Part shown: positions 26,382 to 30,193 of the stretch, piece after piece | Layout: the number at the start of each line of letters is the position of its first letter | Numbering within the stretch: position 1 is the first letter of the stretch | DNA from: Gaiellaceae bacterium | Lineage (GTDB): Bacteria > Actinomycetota > Thermoleophilia > Gaiellales > Gaiellaceae | NCBI GenBank assembly: GCA_051005735.1 | Contig: JBPCJB010000125.1 | Location: 1 to 30,738 of the forward strand | Reading direction: 5' to 3' | DNA: 30,738 nt | Translations under genes and position numbers: made by a program | Notes under the pieces: generated by a model | Seen by the model: the letters and a program-made list of their open reading frames with translations, nothing else | Told to the model about the DNA's origin: nothing | Databases searched by the model: none

Positions 26382-27641
26382 TCAGCGGTCGCGCGACAAC
26401 AGATCCTCGACCGTCTCGCGACGCAGGATCTCCCGCGCCTCTCCGTCGAGCACGAGCACCGCCGCCGGCCGCGGCACACCGTTGTAGGTCGACGCCATCC
26501 CGAGCGTGTAGGCGCCGGTCGCTGGCACGGCGAGCAGATCGCCGCGCCGGGGCTCGGGCAGGAGGACGCTCTCGATCAGGACGTCGCCCGACTCGCAGTG
26601 CTTGCCCGCGATCGTGAACGGCGCCTCGGCAGCTTGCTCGTCCGCCCGGTTCGCGAGCAGCGCCGCGTAGCGGGCGCCGTAGAGCTGAGGGCGCGGGTTG
26701 TCGGACATGCCTCCGTCGATCGCGACGTAGCTCCTGTCGCCGGCGCGCTTGCTCGCCCCGACCGTGTAGAGCGTGCAGGCTGCCGCGCCGACGAGCGACC
26801 GTCCCGGCTCGAGGATCAGGCGCGGCTCCGGTAGCTCGCGGCGCGCCCACGCTCGCCGGACCTCAATGACGATCTCGCCCACGAGCTCCTCGACAGGCGG
26901 CTCGGGCTCGTCGAGCACATACCGGATCCCGAAGCCGCCGCCGATATCGACGACAGCCGCAGTCCAGGAGACCTCGTCCCGCGCCCGAGCCGCGAAATCC
27001 GCGAGCAGCTCGACGGCCTGCAGGTGCGCCCGCCCGTCCAGGAGCTGCGAGCCGACGTGGACGTGCAGTCCCGCGACCTCGATCCCGGTCGCGCACGCGC
27101 GCCGGATCGCGTCCAGCGCGTCGGCTGCGTCGAGCCCGAACTTCGAGCCGCGATGACCGGTGCGGATCGCCTCGTGTGTCTCGGCCTCGACGCCGGGAGT
27201 CACCCGCACGAGCGCCCGTCGCACACCGGCAGCGGCGGCCCGCTCGGGCTCGTCGAGTGCGTCCAGGACGACGAGCGCGCTCACCTCGGCCGCGGCGCGC
27301 AGCTCCGCGTCCGACTTGTTGTTGCCGTGAAAGAGGATCCGCTCGCCGTCGATTCCCGCGGCGCGAGCGAACGCCAGCTCTCCCAGCGTGGACACGTCCG
27401 CGCCCACGCCCTCCTCCGCGAGCAGCCGCAGCAGCGAGACGTTCGCGAAAGCCTTGGTTCCGTAGACGACGAGCGCCTCGGGCGCCGCCTCGCGGAAGAG
27501 CCGCGCCCGTGCTCGGAGCGAGCGCTCGCAGTAGACGACGAGCGGCGTCCCGAAGCGCTCTGCCAGCTCGCTTGCCGCGATCCCACCGACCGTCAGCTCG
27601 CCGTTCTCGAGGCTGGCCGTTTCCGGGAACAGTGCTAGCAT
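26382..27641 (-). CDS. lysA: Diaminopimelate decarboxylase
   Basis: TPLVVY, YGTKAF (PLP Lys), HGNNKS, HVHVGSQ, EPGRS, DGGMSDNPRPQLY, GKHCESGD and MASTYN. Confidence 0.94.
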   Translation of the reverse strand: MLALFPETASLENGELTVGGIAASELAERFGTPLVVYCERSLRARARLFREAAPEALVVYGTKAFANVSLLRLLAEEGVGADVSTLGELAFARAAGIDGERILFHGNNKSDAELRAAAEVSALVVLDALDEPERAAAAGVRRALVRVTPGVEAETHEAIRTGHRGSKFGLDAADALDAIRRACATGIEVAGLHVHVGSQLLDGRAHLQAVELLADFAARARDEVSWTAAVVDIGGGFGIRYVLDEPEPPVEELVGEIVIEVRRAWARRELPEPRLILEPGRSLVGAAACTLYTVGASKRAGDRSYVAIDGGMSDNPRPQLYGARYAALLANRADEQAAEAPFTIAGKHCESGDVLIESVLLPEPRRGDLLAVPATGAYTLGMASTYNGVPRPAAVLVLDGEAREILRRETVEDLLSRDR

Positions 27642-27649
27642 GCGAGGCA

Positions 27650-27670
27650 GTGAAGCAGCTTCTTTCGTAG
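27650..27670 (+). CDS. Putative leucine-sensing leader peptide MKQLLS of a leuS attenuator
   Basis: GTG AAG CAG CTT CTT TCG TAG: tandem CTT codons, atypical in this GC-rich DNA, 8 nt after TAGCAT (27636-27641) and upstream of a terminator and leuS. Confidence 0.65.
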   Translation: MKQLLS

Positions 27671-27710
27671 CGCAGGAAGCGAACGCGGCCCCGCCGCGGC
27701 AGCTTCCCCC

Positions 27711-27737
27711 GGCCTATCTCGCGAGAGGCTTTTTTGT
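27711..27737 (+). terminator. Intrinsic terminator-like hairpin with U-tract inside the leuS 5' leader
   Basis: GGCC-TA-TCT-CGCG-AGA-GGC-TTTTTT: about 7 bp of stem with a 2-nt bulge, followed by six T (27730-27735), 22 nt before the leuS ATG. Confidence 0.7.
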
Positions 27738-27757
27738 ACCCCGAGGTAGGTGAACCG

Positions 27758-30193
27758 ATGACCGAGCGATACGACCCGAGGGTGATCGAGGCGAAGTGGC
27801 AGCGCGTCTGGGAGGACGAGCGCGCGTTCGAGGTCTCGAACGAGCCCGGCCCGAACGAGGCGGCGAAGCCGAAGTCGTACGTGCTCGAGCAGCTCCCCTA
27901 TCCCTCGGGTTCGCTGCACATGGGACACATGCTGGTGTACACGATCGGCGATGTCGTGACGCACTTCCGCAGGCGCAACGGCTACCGCGTGCTCCATCCG
28001 ATGGGATTCGACGCGTTCGGCCTGCCGGCGGAGAACGCCGCGATCCGCGAGGGCGGTCATCCGCGAGCGATGACCGAGCGCAACATCGCGGCGATCAAGG
28101 AATCGATGCGCCGGATCGGCTGGGCGATCGACTGGTCGCGCGAGCTCTCGACGCACGATCCCGACTACTACCGCTGGCAGCAGTGGCAGTTCCTACGCTT
28201 CCTCGAGCGGGGGCTCGCCTATCGGAAGGACGCGCCGGTCAAGTGGTGTCCCGTCGACCAGACCGTGCTCGCGAATGAGCAGGTGCACGACGGGCGCTGC
28301 GAGCGCTGCGGCTCGGAGGTCGAGTCGCGGCTGATGGAGCAGTGGTTCTTCCGCACGACCGACTACGCGCAGGCGCTTCTCGACGACCTCGAGACGGTCG
28401 ACTGGCCCGAGCCGATCAAGGCCCGGCAGCGCAACTGGATCGGCCGCTCCGAGGGCGCCGAGATCGTCTTCCGGATCGAGGAGCTCGATGTCGACGTGCC
28501 GGTGTTCACGACCCGGCCCGACACGCTCTTCGGCGCGACCTTCTTCGCGCTGGCGCCCGAACACGAGCTCGTCGAGCGGATCGCCGCGCGCGCCGCCAAC
28601 GGCAGCGAGATTCGCGACTACGTGCGGCGGGCTTCCGCCAAGAAAACGGAAGAGCGCGCCGCGGCCGAGGAGAAGACCGGGGTCGACACGGGCCTTCACG
28701 TCGCCAATCCCGTCAACGGAGAGCGGCTGCCGATCTACGTCGCGGACTACGTGCTGACCGACTACGGCACCGGCGCGGTCATGGCCGTGCCGGCGCACGA
28801 CGCCCGCGATCACGCGTTTGCTCAGGCGTTCGGGCTGCCCGTGCGCGTCGTCGTGCGGTCCGGCGAGGGCGAGACGGAGGAGGCGCCGTACCTCGGCTCC
28901 GGCGAGGGCTACGTGCTCGTCGAATCAGGCGACCTGGACGGGCTACCGGCGCCGGAGGGCGGGCGGCGGATCGTGGAGCGACTGGAGGCGGAGGGAAGGG
29001 GCCGCTTCACTGTCAACTTTCGCCTCCGCGACTGGGGCTTCTCACGTCAGCGCTACTGGGGCTGCCCGATTCCGATCGTCTACTGCGGGTCCTGCGGGAT
29101 CGTTTCCGTGTCGGACGACGAGCTGCCGGTCGTGCTGCCGGAGATCGAGGACTACAAGCCGCAGGGCCGCCCGCCGCTCGCCGGGGCCGAGGACTGGGTG
29201 AACGTGCCATGCCCGTCGTGCGCCAGGCCCGCGCAGCGGGAGACCGAGACGATGGACACCTTCGTCGACTCGTCCTGGTACTTCCTGCGCTACTGCGACC
29301 CGCACAACGATCGCGCGCCGTTCGACCGCGCCATCGTCGACTACTGGAATCCCGTCGACCTCTATATCGGCGGCGTCGACCACGCCACGATGCACATGAT
29401 CTATGCGCGCTTCTGGATGAAGGCGCTGAACGACATGGGTTTCATCGGCTTCCGCGAGCCGTTCGCCAGCTTCTATTCGAACGGCTGGGTCACGCTCGGG
29501 AGGACGAAGATGGCGAAGCGCGCCGGCAACATCGTCGGCCCCGACGCGTTCGTCGAGCGCCACGGCGCCGACACGGTTCGCCTCTACATCCTCTTCATCG
29601 GGCCGGCCGACCAGGACATGGAGTGGACAGAGGAAGGCGTCGAGGGGATGGGTCGCTTCGTGCGGCGGCTCTGGCGCGTCGTGCGCGAGGTCGCCGAGCG
29701 CGCACCTGCGTCCGGCGAGGCGACGAGCCCGCTTTCCCGCAAGGCGCACGCGACGATCGCGAAGGCGACCGACGATATCGGCCGGCGCTACGCGTTCAAC
29801 ACCGCGATCTCGGCCGTGATGGAGCTCGTGAACGAGTTGTCGCGCGACCCGGCTGCGGTCGACGCGCGCTTTGCCGCCGAGACGGCCGTCTCGCTGATCC
29901 AGCCGTACGCGCCGCACGTCGCCGAGGAGCTGTGGGGGGTGCTCGGCCGCGACCGCCTCTGGGAGGCGCCCTGGCCCGCGGCCGACGCGGCGATGCTCGA
30001 GCGCGAGACGGTCGAGCTCGTCGTGCAGGTGAACGGAAAGGTGCGGGACCGGTTGCAGGTGGCAGCCGCGACACCCGAGGAGGAGCTCGTCTCGCTCGGC
30101 CGAGCGTCCGAGCGGGTGCAGGCGCACCTGAAAGGCGGCGAGCCCAGGAAGACGATCGTCGTTCCGGGGAAGCTCGTCAACTTCGTCGTCTGA
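27758..30193 (+). CDS. leuS: Leucine--tRNA ligase
   Basis: ATG at 27758 after GAGGTAGGTG. Contains PYPSG.LHMGH (HIGH), GFDAFGLPAENAA, the CP1 editing motif TTRPDTLFG, GTGAVMAVPAHD, RQRYWGCPIP, MDTFVDSS, a KMSKS-equivalent KMAKR and C-terminal VQVNGKVR. Confidence 0.95.
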   Translation: MTERYDPRVIEAKWQRVWEDERAFEVSNEPGPNEAAKPKSYVLEQLPYPSGSLHMGHMLVYTIGDVVTHFRRRNGYRVLHPMGFDAFGLPAENAAIREGGHPRAMTERNIAAIKESMRRIGWAIDWSRELSTHDPDYYRWQQWQFLRFLERGLAYRKDAPVKWCPVDQTVLANEQVHDGRCERCGSEVESRLMEQWFFRTTDYAQALLDDLETVDWPEPIKARQRNWIGRSEGAEIVFRIEELDVDVPVFTTRPDTLFGATFFALAPEHELVERIAARAANGSEIRDYVRRASAKKTEERAAAEEKTGVDTGLHVANPVNGERLPIYVADYVLTDYGTGAVMAVPAHDARDHAFAQAFGLPVRVVVRSGEGETEEAPYLGSGEGYVLVESGDLDGLPAPEGGRRIVERLEAEGRGRFTVNFRLRDWGFSRQRYWGCPIPIVYCGSCGIVSVSDDELPVVLPEIEDYKPQGRPPLAGAEDWVNVPCPSCARPAQRETETMDTFVDSSWYFLRYCDPHNDRAPFDRAIVDYWNPVDLYIGGVDHATMHMIYARFWMKALNDMGFIGFREPFASFYSNGWVTLGRTKMAKRAGNIVGPDAFVERHGADTVRLYILFIGPADQDMEWTEEGVEGMGRFVRRLWRVVREVAERAPASGEATSPLSRKAHATIAKATDDIGRRYAFNTAISAVMELVNELSRDPAAVDARFAAETAVSLIQPYAPHVAEELWGVLGRDRLWEAPWPAADAAMLERETVELVVQVNGKVRDRLQVAAATPEEELVSLGRASERVQAHLKGGEPRKTIVVPGKLVNFVV

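What the first reader, a model, noticed from the sequence alone, without database searches (positions are those of the whole stretch)
27636..27757. Candidate ribosome-mediated leucine attenuator with a near-leaderless 6-codon peptide upstream of leuS
Seen: TAGCAT -10 (27636-27641), then GTG-AAG-CAG-CTT-CTT-TCG-TAG (27650-27670) with tandem rare Leu codons, then alternative pairings, then a hairpin plus T6 terminator (27711-27735), then leuS. Pairing 1:2 is GCTTCTT (27658-27664) with AGGAAGC (27674-27680). Pairing 2:3 is GGAAGC (27675-27680) with GCTTCC (27702-27707), extendable through GTAGCG (27667-27672) onto 27710-27717, which invades the terminator 5' arm. Known: classical attenuation senses charged tRNA through leader-peptide codons, leuS attenuators have been predicted in some streptomycetes, and leaderless regulatory sORFs occur in mycobacteria. 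Inference: Leu-tRNA shortage stalls the ribosome and allows read-through into leuS. The unit is exceptionally compact and invisible to ORF callers.
Basis: partly seen in the sequence, partly recalled or inferred. Interest (0 to 1): 0.75.

Follow-up and report, generated by a model that had tools for sequence, protein, structure and literature searches.

The report
Leucine leader-peptide attenuator before leuS
A six-codon mini-gene with two rare leucine codons, a hairpin and a transcription stop signal sit in front of the leucyl-tRNA synthetase gene and are conserved across a family of uncultured soil actinobacteria; this kind of leucine-sensing switch is already known from Streptomyces, but the RNA pairing that should turn the stop signal off is missing.

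Summary
The unit is real. It occurs once per genome, upstream of leuS, in 22 of 23 sampled Gaiellaceae genomes, and diverged copies occur in other Gaiellales.

In 91 aligned leaders:
- A start codon lies 7-12 nt after a TAnnnT -10 box, so the mRNA is leaderless.
- The peptide is M-x-x-L-L-x-stop.
- 80% of the Leu codons are CTT, against 4.7% of Leu codons genome-wide.
- All three stop codons occur, and the sixth codon varies freely.

The terminator is nearly invariant.

The proposed switch is not supported:
- Pairing 1:2 shows no covariation.
- The extension of 2:3 into the terminator depends on a base (A27716) found in 1 of 91 sequences. Near-identical contigs from three metagenomes read C there.
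- Folding with ribosome masks leaves the terminator intact in every state.

Streptomyces-like leuS leaders (leuL2, MRAVRLLLSEPR) show the same design: a hairpin that abuts the terminator without overlapping it. I infer a canonical Leu-sensing attenuator in which the hairpin and a stalled ribosome block the terminator sterically.

It is a new member of a known kind. This scan had already found the family on other DNA (e1-2949561).

The parts
27633..27641 (+). Extended -10 promoter element TGC-TAGCAT (TGnTAnnnT). It overlaps the ATG (CAT 27639-41) of the divergent decarboxylase gene.
   Evidence: Sequence. The TGnTAnnnT consensus heads alignment A1. The spacer to the leader start codon is 7-12 nt, mode 9, in 86 leaders. 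The TAnnnT -10 and leaderless leuL2 in Streptomyces are described in PMC8079986. The transcription start itself is inferred, not mapped.
27650..27670 (+). Leader ORF GTG AAG CAG CTT CTT TCG TAG (M-K-Q-L-L-S-stop). It starts 8 nt after the -10 box, so it is leaderless or has a 5' UTR of 2 nt or less.
   Evidence: Two or three Leu codons followed by 0-1 codon and a stop occur in 93 of 95 leaders. There are 38 different peptides, 15 different sixth codons, and stops TAG 73, TAA 7, TGA 6.
27659..27664 (+). Tandem rare Leu codons CTT CTT, the presumed sensing site.
   Evidence: CTT makes up 147 of 183 leader Leu codons but 4.7% of Leu codons genome-wide. The genome has tRNA-Leu(GAG) and no tRNA-Leu(AAG), so CUU is read by G.U wobble.
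27675..27707 (+). The outer helix is 27675-80 with 27702-07. The inner helix is 27684-89 with 27693-98, with loop CCC.
   Evidence: MFE. In one search, 5 of 7 outer pairs and 2 of 6 inner pairs show changes on both sides, and 96% of cells pair against 41-62% when partners are slid. The 5' arm starts at +17 from the first P-site base when the second CTT is in the A site (gap5 = 16).
27711..27735 (+). Intrinsic terminator: stem 27712-18 with 27723-29, loop TCGC, then T6 at 27730-35. The window has an A.G mismatch at 27716.
   Evidence: GCCTCTC/GAGAGGC plus a T run is nearly invariant in 91 leaders, with 99% of cells paired. Position 27716 reads C, giving a perfect stem, in contigs from three metagenomes.
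27736..27757 (+). Read-through segment: the conserved GTACCC (27736-41) and the purine-rich ribosome-binding region of leuS (27743-52).
   Evidence: GT(A/T)CCC is conserved after the T run in A1. Its function is unknown.
27758..30193 (+). leuS, leucyl-tRNA synthetase, 811 aa: the regulated gene.
   Evidence: Pfam matches to the LeuRS editing domain, tRNA-synt_1 and Anticodon_1.
26382..27641 (-). Divergent PLP-dependent decarboxylase gene (lysA-like). It is not part of the attenuator, but its start codon lies inside the -10 box.
   Evidence: It is the divergent neighbour in 86 of 95 loci, and the leader is kept in the 9 loci without it.

Best explanation
This is a ribosome-mediated, leucine-sensing transcription attenuator of leuS.

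Transcription starts a few bases after TGCTAGCAT. A 70S ribosome loads on the 5'-terminal GTG and translates M-K-Q-L-L-S.

**When charged tRNA-Leu(GAG) is plentiful.** The ribosome runs to the TAG. Its leading edge then covers 27675-80, the 5' arm of hairpin 1. The 3' arm stays single-stranded, the terminator folds, and most transcripts end at the T6 run.

**When charged tRNA-Leu is scarce.** The ribosome stalls with a CTT codon in the A site. Its leading edge stops 1-4 nt short of 27675, so hairpin 1 folds.

**How hairpin 1 suppresses the terminator.** Hairpin 1 shares no base with the terminator. It abuts it, with a 0-5 nt linker, and it also abuts the stalled ribosome. I infer that suppression is steric.
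- With hairpin 1 folded out, the path from the P site to the RNA 3' end at the T run is about 45 nt. That is the spacing of a coupled ribosome-RNA polymerase complex.
- Folding the 18-nt terminator as well would cut this path to about 27 nt, below the collision distance of about 30 nt.
- The terminator stem therefore cannot be completed, and polymerase reads on into leuS.

**Shown:** the ORF, its codon bias and conservation, hairpin 1, the terminator, the spacings, and the lack of a pairing-based antiterminator.

**Inferred:** the transcription start, stalling, the direction of regulation, and the steric step. I give the steric step alone about 0.3.
For: - Conservation: a single copy per genome in 22 of 23 Gaiellaceae genomes, covering 11 of 12 genera, and always the leuS leader. 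Homologous leaders in other Gaiellales families have different peptides that still carry 3-4 Leu (MGNALLLT, MMRSLLLR, MSAHALLLP, MCERALLLL).
- Coding signature: the reading frame, Leu-Leu, and the stop are kept while codons vary, across 38 peptides, 15 sixth codons and all three stops. Start codons are GTG or ATG, 7-12 nt after TAnnnT.
- CTT makes up 80% of leader Leu codons against 4.7% genome-wide. It is read only by wobble from tRNA-Leu(GAG).
- Hairpin 1 covaries.
- Geometry is conserved: stop to hairpin 0-5 nt, hairpin to terminator 0-4 nt. The effective spacing is 45.4 +/- 1.0 nt in 89 leaders and 42-47 nt in Streptomyces-like leaders, whose hairpin is 12-19 nt longer.
- Streptomyces-like genomes have the same design, with CTT CTG CTT codons. 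That design is published as a leuS attenuator with a leaderless leader peptide (PMC1262725, PMC8079986).
- Published ribosome-polymerase complexes span 3 + 12 to 30 + 15 nt from the P site to the RNA 3' end (bioRxiv 10.1101/2020.03.01.972380).
Against: - No transcript data exist. No RNA run holds this sequence usefully.
- Equilibrium folding predicts the terminator in every ribosome state. The direction of regulation therefore rests on analogy and on spacing.
- The figure of about 45 nt is largely a restatement that both linkers are short.
- No precedent known to me shows that a non-overlapping adjacent hairpin plus a stalled ribosome blocks an intrinsic terminator.
- The 91 sequences are related, so the counts overstate independence.
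- The Leu-codon segment is also strongly complementary to the terminator's 3' arm. This model does not explain that.
Confidence: 0.6

Rival explanations
1. Classical trp-type switch. Hairpin 2:3, extended through GTAGCG onto 27710-17, competes by base pairing with the terminator's 5' arm.
For: In the window sequence alone, the ribosome-free MFE is one long hairpin that includes this extension.
Against: - The extension is 62% pairable, the same as shuffles.
- Its U27668-A27716 pair occurs in 1 of 91 sequences.
- A27716 reads C in three near-identical metagenome contigs.
- A ribosome stalled at the CTT codons would cover 27667-72.
- In the stalled state the terminator folds at P 0.80 (window) to 0.98 (mean).
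- Forbidding the terminator recovers only about 1.3 kcal/mol on average.
- 5'-region-to-T5 and segment-2-to-T5 complementarity is not above shuffles.
Confidence: 0.05
2. Reverse logic. The Leu-codon segment (AGCTTCTT, 27657-64) mimics the terminator's 5' arm and pairs with the 3' arm (27723-30) when no ribosome covers it, lowering termination. A translating or stalled ribosome uncovers the true terminator. leuS would then fall when Leu-tRNA is scarce or translation is heavy.
For: - This pairing is possible in 95% of cells.
- It is the strongest above-chance duplex: -10.1 against -5.7 kcal/mol for shuffles.
- Ribosome-free RNA prefers it in 14 of 93 leaders, including the window at 0.94.
Against: - The median leader still folds the local terminator at 0.99 without a ribosome.
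- The alternative helix also ends at the T run, so it may terminate too.
- By eye, the pairing is weak in two outgroup leaders (L023, L026).
- Positive feedback on an essential synthetase is the opposite of every known aaRS control (T-box, pheST).
Confidence: 0.12
3. The terminator is constitutive and only partly efficient. The Leu-stalled ribosome acts after transcription, by shielding the 5' end of read-through mRNA from 5'-end-dependent RNases or by changing access to the leuS ribosome-binding site. This would resemble erm-leader mRNA stabilisation or translational attenuation.
For: - No pairing-based antiterminator exists.
- With a stalled ribosome, the whole leader is either covered or double-stranded.
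- The terminator's 5' arm looks like an anti-Shine-Dalgarno sequence and can pair with the leuS ribosome-binding region in the window's MFE.
Against: - It does not explain why the hairpin-terminator linker is held at 0-4 nt in both Gaiellales and Streptomyces.
- The pairing of the 5' arm with the ribosome-binding site is not conserved among relatives (by eye).
Confidence: 0.12
4. It is not a sensor. It is a conserved 5' leader or small RNA with a terminator, or conserved promoter DNA of the divergent decarboxylase gene, and the mini-ORF is incidental.
For: The -10 box overlaps the decarboxylase start, and 86 of 95 loci keep the divergent pair. There is no Rfam match.
Against: - The leader is kept with leuS in 9 loci that lack the decarboxylase neighbour.
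- Frame, Leu-Leu and stop are conserved through synonymous and stop-codon changes, with an extreme CTT bias.
- The T run and ORF are strand-specific.
Confidence: 0.05

Closest known systems
Streptomyces leuS attenuator (leuL2 leader peptide MRAVRLLLSEPR). Predicted by Seliverstov et al. 2005 (PMC1262725). Leaderless start and hairpin plus U stretch reported by Droste et al. 2021 (PMC8079986).
   Same: - A leaderless Leu-run ORF using CTT codons, upstream of leuS.
- A two-tier hairpin whose 5' arm begins 12-18 nt after the P site of a Leu-stalled ribosome.
- That hairpin abuts the terminator with a 0-6 nt linker and does not overlap it.
- The effective ribosome-to-terminator spacing is the same, 42-47 nt.
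   Different: - Half the ORF length (6 against 12 codons) and two rather than three Leu.
- The stop codon lies outside the hairpin here and inside it in Streptomyces.
- Hairpin 1 is 33 nt against 45-52 nt.
- Sequence similarity is only marginal: the Gaiellaceae model scores the Streptomyces leaders at E 0.2-0.6.
- The host is a different class (Thermoleophilia).
Enterobacterial leader-peptide attenuators: trp, leu operon (Rfam Leu_leader RF00512) and pheST (pheM).
   Same: Regulatory codons near the end of a short ORF, rare Leu codons as in the leu leader, an intrinsic terminator, and control of an aaRS gene as in pheST. This comparison rests on my own knowledge.
   Different: - Those have a Shine-Dalgarno-led ORF of 14-30 codons and an antiterminator that shares bases with the terminator's 5' arm.
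- Here the ORF is leaderless with 6 codons, and no shared bases exist.
- No Rfam family matches.
T-box riboswitches on leuS in Firmicutes
   Same: The same gene and the same expected logic: more LeuRS when tRNA-Leu is uncharged.
   Different: A T-box reads tRNA directly, needs no ribosome, and is over 200 nt long. No T-box match was found even at E <= 10.
pyrBI-type attenuation, in which a ribosome close behind the polymerase physically prevents the terminator hairpin (my own knowledge)
   Same: If the steric model is right, a ribosome blocks the terminator hairpin by occupancy rather than by an alternative RNA helix.
   Different: In pyrBI the leader ORF runs through the terminator. Here the ORF ends 42 nt upstream, and a folded hairpin would bring the ribosome next to the terminator.

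Membership tests
Classical (trp-type) ribosome-mediated transcription attenuator | A short leader ORF enriched in codons of the amino acid linked to the regulated gene | tested here: met
   M-x-x-L-L-x-stop occurs in 93 of 95 leaders upstream of leuS, and 80% of Leu codons are the rare CTT.
Classical (trp-type) ribosome-mediated transcription attenuator | An intrinsic terminator (GC-rich hairpin plus U run) between the leader ORF and the gene | tested here: met
   GCCTCTC/GAGAGGC plus T6 is nearly invariant, with a hairpin energy of -11.6 kcal/mol on average. Function is inferred from sequence only.
Classical (trp-type) ribosome-mediated transcription attenuator | An antiterminator helix (2:3) that shares bases with the terminator's 5' arm | tested here: not met
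   Hairpin 1 ends 3-5 nt before the terminator. The proposed extension is not conserved. The terminator folds at about 0.98 in the stalled state. No compensating structure exists.
Classical (trp-type) ribosome-mediated transcription attenuator | Segment 2 is free when the ribosome stalls at the regulatory codons and covered when it reaches the stop codon | tested here: met
   The 5' arm starts at +16 to +17 from the P site with the last Leu codon in the A site, and at +11 with the stop codon there. Stop-to-hairpin distance is 0-5 nt in 86 leaders.
Classical (trp-type) ribosome-mediated transcription attenuator | A 1:2 pairing that keeps segment 2 from segment 3 without translation | tested here: inconclusive
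   90% of cells are pairable against 44-66% when slid. But there is no covariation, the value equals the shuffles, and the pairing breaks in 31 sequences where segment 2 co-varies with segment 3. Duplex energy is barely above shuffles.
Streptomyces leuL2-leuS type attenuator | A leaderless Leu-run ORF directly after a TAnnnT -10 box, upstream of leuS | tested here: met
   The spacer is 7-12 nt here and 6 nt in the Streptomyces-like loci. The TSS in S. lividans is mapped in PMC8079986.
Streptomyces leuL2-leuS type attenuator | A stable hairpin followed directly by a hairpin plus U run | tested here: met
   The same two-hairpin fold with a 0-6 nt linker appears in both groups.
Streptomyces leuL2-leuS type attenuator | Detectable sequence or structure homology | tested here: inconclusive
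   Model R1 hits 4 of 7 Streptomyces-like leaders at the right place, but only at E 0.19-0.58.
Streptomyces leuL2-leuS type attenuator | Leucine-dependent read-through | not testable with these tools
   No expression data are available for either group. The two papers read report prediction and transcript mapping only.
T-box riboswitch | Stem I specifier loop and the T-box antiterminator sequence | tested here: not met
   No Rfam match at E <= 10. The leader is only about 86 nt long.

The most novel reading that the evidence does not exclude
The leuS attenuators of Gaiellales and Streptomyces work without any antiterminator helix. Hairpin 1 folds out about 33-50 nt of RNA and so places the Leu-stalled ribosome at coupling distance (about 45 nt from P site to 3' end) from the polymerase at the T run. 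Completing the terminator hairpin would need about 27 nt, less than the collision distance. The stalled ribosome therefore blocks termination sterically, at a distance. This would be a new way for a leader peptide to control an intrinsic terminator. It would also explain why both linkers are held at 0-5 nt.
Probability: 0.3. Interest if true: 0.75.

Novelty: new member of a known kind. Interest (0 to 1): 0.42.

Why it matters
This gives Thermoleophilia, a deep, mostly uncultured soil actinobacterial class, a clear example of amino-acid sensing through a leaderless mini-ORF. At six codons it is among the shortest leader peptides proposed. About 90 natural variants define what is constrained: the Leu-Leu pair, CTT usage, the hairpin and the spacings.

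The comparison also shows that the long-predicted Streptomyces leuS "classical" attenuator has no pairing-based antiterminator either. How these leaders switch is therefore an open question that spacer-insertion experiments could test.

Practically, ORF callers and Rfam miss the element. Model R1 finds it specifically, at one hit per genome.

Tried and rejected
- **Rfam**, at E <= 10: only chance hits (mir-207, tfoR), no T-box and no Leu_leader.
- **Simple promoter and terminator scan**: found nothing. It missed the window's mismatched stem.
- **Single-sequence fold**: not better than shuffles.
- **Search for a hidden antiterminator.** Segment 2 against the terminator 5' arm, and the 5' region against the terminator 5' arm, are not above shuffles. 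Constrained folding found no compensating structure.
- **Segment 2 paired with the conserved GT(A/T)CCC after the T run**: not above shuffles.
- **TTG at 27734** is in frame with leuS, but this is not kept in frame in relatives (by eye, for example L006). I rejected it as the leuS start.
- **A hairpin-dependent pause consensus** downstream of hairpin 1: inconsistent between subgroups (by eye).
- **Expression data.** No RNA run holds the sequence. The one "RNA-Seq" run is probably DNA and comes from another strain.
- **Complex prediction and structure tools**: not relevant here.
Full report
**1. Observation**

The elements are:
- TGC-TAGCAT at 27633-41.
- GTG AAG CAG CTT CTT TCG TAG at 27650-70.
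- A two-tier hairpin, 27675-80 with 27702-07, enclosing 27684-89 with 27693-98.
- A second hairpin, 27712-18 with 27723-29, then T6 at 27730-35.
- The leuS ATG at 27758.

The downstream protein is LeuRS by Pfam.

The upstream gene is divergent. It is a PLP-dependent Orn/DAP/Arg-type decarboxylase on the minus strand, and its ATG is the CAT inside TAGCAT. The hairpin plus T6 therefore cannot be the terminator of an upstream gene.

The single sequence is unremarkable on its own:
- There is no Rfam match.
- The fold z-score is -0.47.
- The simple terminator scan finds nothing, because the window's stem carries an A.G mismatch at 27716.

**2. Relatives**

The window is contig C125 of a 2.57-Mb, 80%-complete MAG. 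Record titles of its nearest leuS loci name Gaiellaceae, Gaiellales and Thermoleophilia.

I took leuS upstream regions from 30 relatives and 80 further loci. This gave 95 distinct leaders of the same build. Ninety-one Gaiellaceae leaders form alignment A1.

One row, L003, comes from the unpublished genome G008. It is one of 91 rows, and no claim depends on it alone.

I built a covariance model, R1, from A1.
- It finds exactly one hit per genome in 22 of 23 Gaiellaceae genomes, covering 11 of 12 genera.
- It finds none in 128 genomes of other families of the class, using the stricter filters.
- It does detect the diverged leaders of other Gaiellales families, at E 4e-7 to 4e-4.

The leader is kept in 9 loci where the decarboxylase neighbour is absent, so it belongs to leuS.

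**3. The mini-ORF is real coding sequence**

In the 86 Gaiellaceae leaders I could parse:
- The start is GTG (54) or ATG (32), lying 7-12 nt (mode 9) after a TAnnnT box. No conserved Shine-Dalgarno sequence precedes it, so the mRNA is leaderless.
- 75 have two Leu codons and 11 have three, followed by at most one codon and a stop.
- Stops are TAG 73, TAA 7 and TGA 6.
- The sixth codon takes 15 forms.
- There are 38 different peptides.

Two leaders have lost the Leu pair: L054 (MERRSP) and L073 (MKRRLT).

Outgroup families have different peptides that still carry 3-4 Leu.

CTT accounts for 147 of 183 leader Leu codons. Genome-wide it is only 4.7% of Leu codons, against 63% for CTC. The genome has tRNA-Leu(GAG) but no tRNA-Leu(AAG). 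CUU must therefore be read by wobble from the isoacceptor that serves the commonest Leu codon. That is a plausible way to sharpen sensing, but it is an inference.

**4. Structures**

| Pairing | Result | Call |
|---|---|---|
5 of 7 outer pairs and 2 of 6 inner pairs change on both sides; 96% of cells pair against 41-62% when slid | 26 |
| Terminator stem | Nearly invariant, so it shows no covariation; 99% paired | 26 |

Contigs from three metagenomes are otherwise at least 99% identical over 301 nt, yet they read C at 27716, which gives a perfect stem. They also read C at 27754. The window's A is therefore a singleton variant or an assembly error.

**5. Is there a switch by base pairing?**

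I folded each leader with the RNA masked as a ribosome would mask it: A site at the first Leu codon, at the last Leu codon, or at the stop.
- The terminator's 3' arm pairs with its own 5' arm at mean probability 0.98 (stalled) and 0.96 (at stop). The window gives 0.80 and 0.70.
- Forbidding the terminator in the stalled state costs 10.3 +/- 1.4 kcal/mol. The hairpin itself is worth -11.6 kcal/mol. So nothing else pairs in its place.
- Complementarity between the terminator's 5' arm and either segment 2 or the 5' region is not above shuffles.

The classical overlapping antiterminator is therefore absent.

The only strong extra complementarity lies between the Leu-codon segment and the terminator's 3' arm.
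- It is pairable in 95% of cells.
- The duplex energy is -10.1 kcal/mol against -5.7 for shuffles.
- It dominates the ribosome-free fold in 14 of 93 leaders, including the window.
- A ribosome on the ORF would prevent it.

I cannot explain it within the canonical model. It might silence the start codon of finished leader transcripts, but that is speculation. It underlies the reverse-logic rival.

**6. What is conserved instead is geometry**

- The stop codon lies 0-5 nt from hairpin 1.
- Hairpin 1 lies 0-4 nt from the terminator stem.
- With the last Leu codon in the A site, the 5' arm of hairpin 1 begins at +16 to +17 from the first P-site base, just outside a ribosome's leading edge.
- With the stop codon in the A site, the 5' arm is covered.

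So hairpin 1 reports whether the ribosome has passed the Leu codons, as segment 2:3 does in trp.

**7. The known Streptomyces case has the same build**

Seliverstov et al. 2005 predicted classical attenuators upstream of leuS in S. coelicolor and S. avermitilis. Droste et al. 2021 reported leuL2 (MRAVRLLLSEPR) as leaderless and followed by a hairpin and a U stretch.

I searched for that peptide as a degenerate DNA pattern. It appears in 9 of 10 genomes of one 7-10-Mb genus, which I presume to be Streptomyces, and nowhere else among 401 genomes of the phylum.

Those leaders have:
- TACCCT, then 6 nt, then ATG.
- Leu codons CTT CTG CTT.
- A two-tier hairpin of 45-52 nt whose 5' arm includes the stop codon.
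- A terminator directly after it, with a 0-6 nt linker and no overlap.

The terminator folds in all ribosome states there too. The lack of a pairing antiterminator is thus a property of the family, not of this window.

**8. Proposed mechanism**

With hairpin 1 folded, the RNA path from the stalled ribosome's P site to the presumed release point is:
- 45.4 +/- 1.0 nt in 89 Gaiellaceae leaders.
- 42-47 nt in the Streptomyces-like leaders, although their total length is about 14 nt greater.

Published ribosome-polymerase complexes contain 3 nt (P site), a 12-30 nt spacer, and 15 nt inside the polymerase. That is 30-48 nt in all. The NusG-bridged form needs 42-48 nt.

Folding the 18-nt terminator as well would leave about 27 nt, less than the collided minimum.

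I therefore infer that a Leu-stalled ribosome together with hairpin 1 sterically prevents completion of the terminator stem. A ribosome at the stop codon, or no ribosome, leaves the 3' arm of hairpin 1 free and allows termination.

This gives the canonical logic of more LeuRS when Leu-tRNA is scarce. It also explains the short linkers.

The steric step remains an inference. The 45-nt figure largely restates that both linkers are short. I give the steric step about 0.3, and the overall Leu-sensing attenuator reading about 0.6.

**9. Novelty**

The kind is known from Streptomyces leuS and from E. coli pheST. This element is a new, minimal (six-codon) member in a different actinobacterial class.

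This scan had already reported the same family on other DNA, with the same failure to find an antiterminator (e1-2949561). My tests agree with that report independently.

Noticed in passing
window 27716 and 27754: Contigs from three public metagenomes, otherwise at least 99% identical over 27560-27860, read C instead of A at both places. C at 27716 restores the perfect terminator stem seen in the other 90 aligned leaders. The window's A is a singleton variant or an assembly error.
   Followed up: yes
L019-L022 (family f5 of the same order), 30 nt upstream of leuS: These genomes have no leader or terminator. A TAGAAT box lies 6-7 nt before the leuS ATG, so leuS itself looks leaderless there. 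Model R1 gives no hit in L019 or L020, the two of these loci that were searched.
   Followed up: partly
L054 and L073 leaders: Two Gaiellaceae leaders keep the promoter, hairpin 1 and the terminator but have lost the Leu pair (MERRSP and MKRRLT). They may be natural loss-of-sensing variants or sequencing errors.
   Followed up: no
window 27657-27664 with 27723-27730: The Leu-codon segment AGCTTCTT is a U-for-C copy of the terminator's 5' arm. It can pair with the 3' arm in 95% of alignment cells, and the duplex is as strong as hairpin 1's outer helix. The canonical model does not explain this.
   Followed up: partly
window 27633-27641 / 26382-27641 (-): The -10 box of the leader promoter contains the start codon of the divergent lysA-like decarboxylase gene. 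That gene has no visible Shine-Dalgarno sequence, so it may also be leaderless, and the two promoters must overlap back to back. The divergent pair is kept in 86 of 95 loci.
   Followed up: partly
window 27736-27741 and 27734: GT(A/T)CCC directly after the T run is conserved across Gaiellaceae, with no partner found. The TTG at 27734 opens a frame continuous with leuS in the window, but this does not hold in all relatives.
   Followed up: partly
L135-L143 (Streptomyces-like genomes): The known leuL2 leader also uses the rare-looking CTT for two of its three Leu codons (CTT CTG CTT). Its hairpin's inner stem varies with compensating changes between species.
   Followed up: partly
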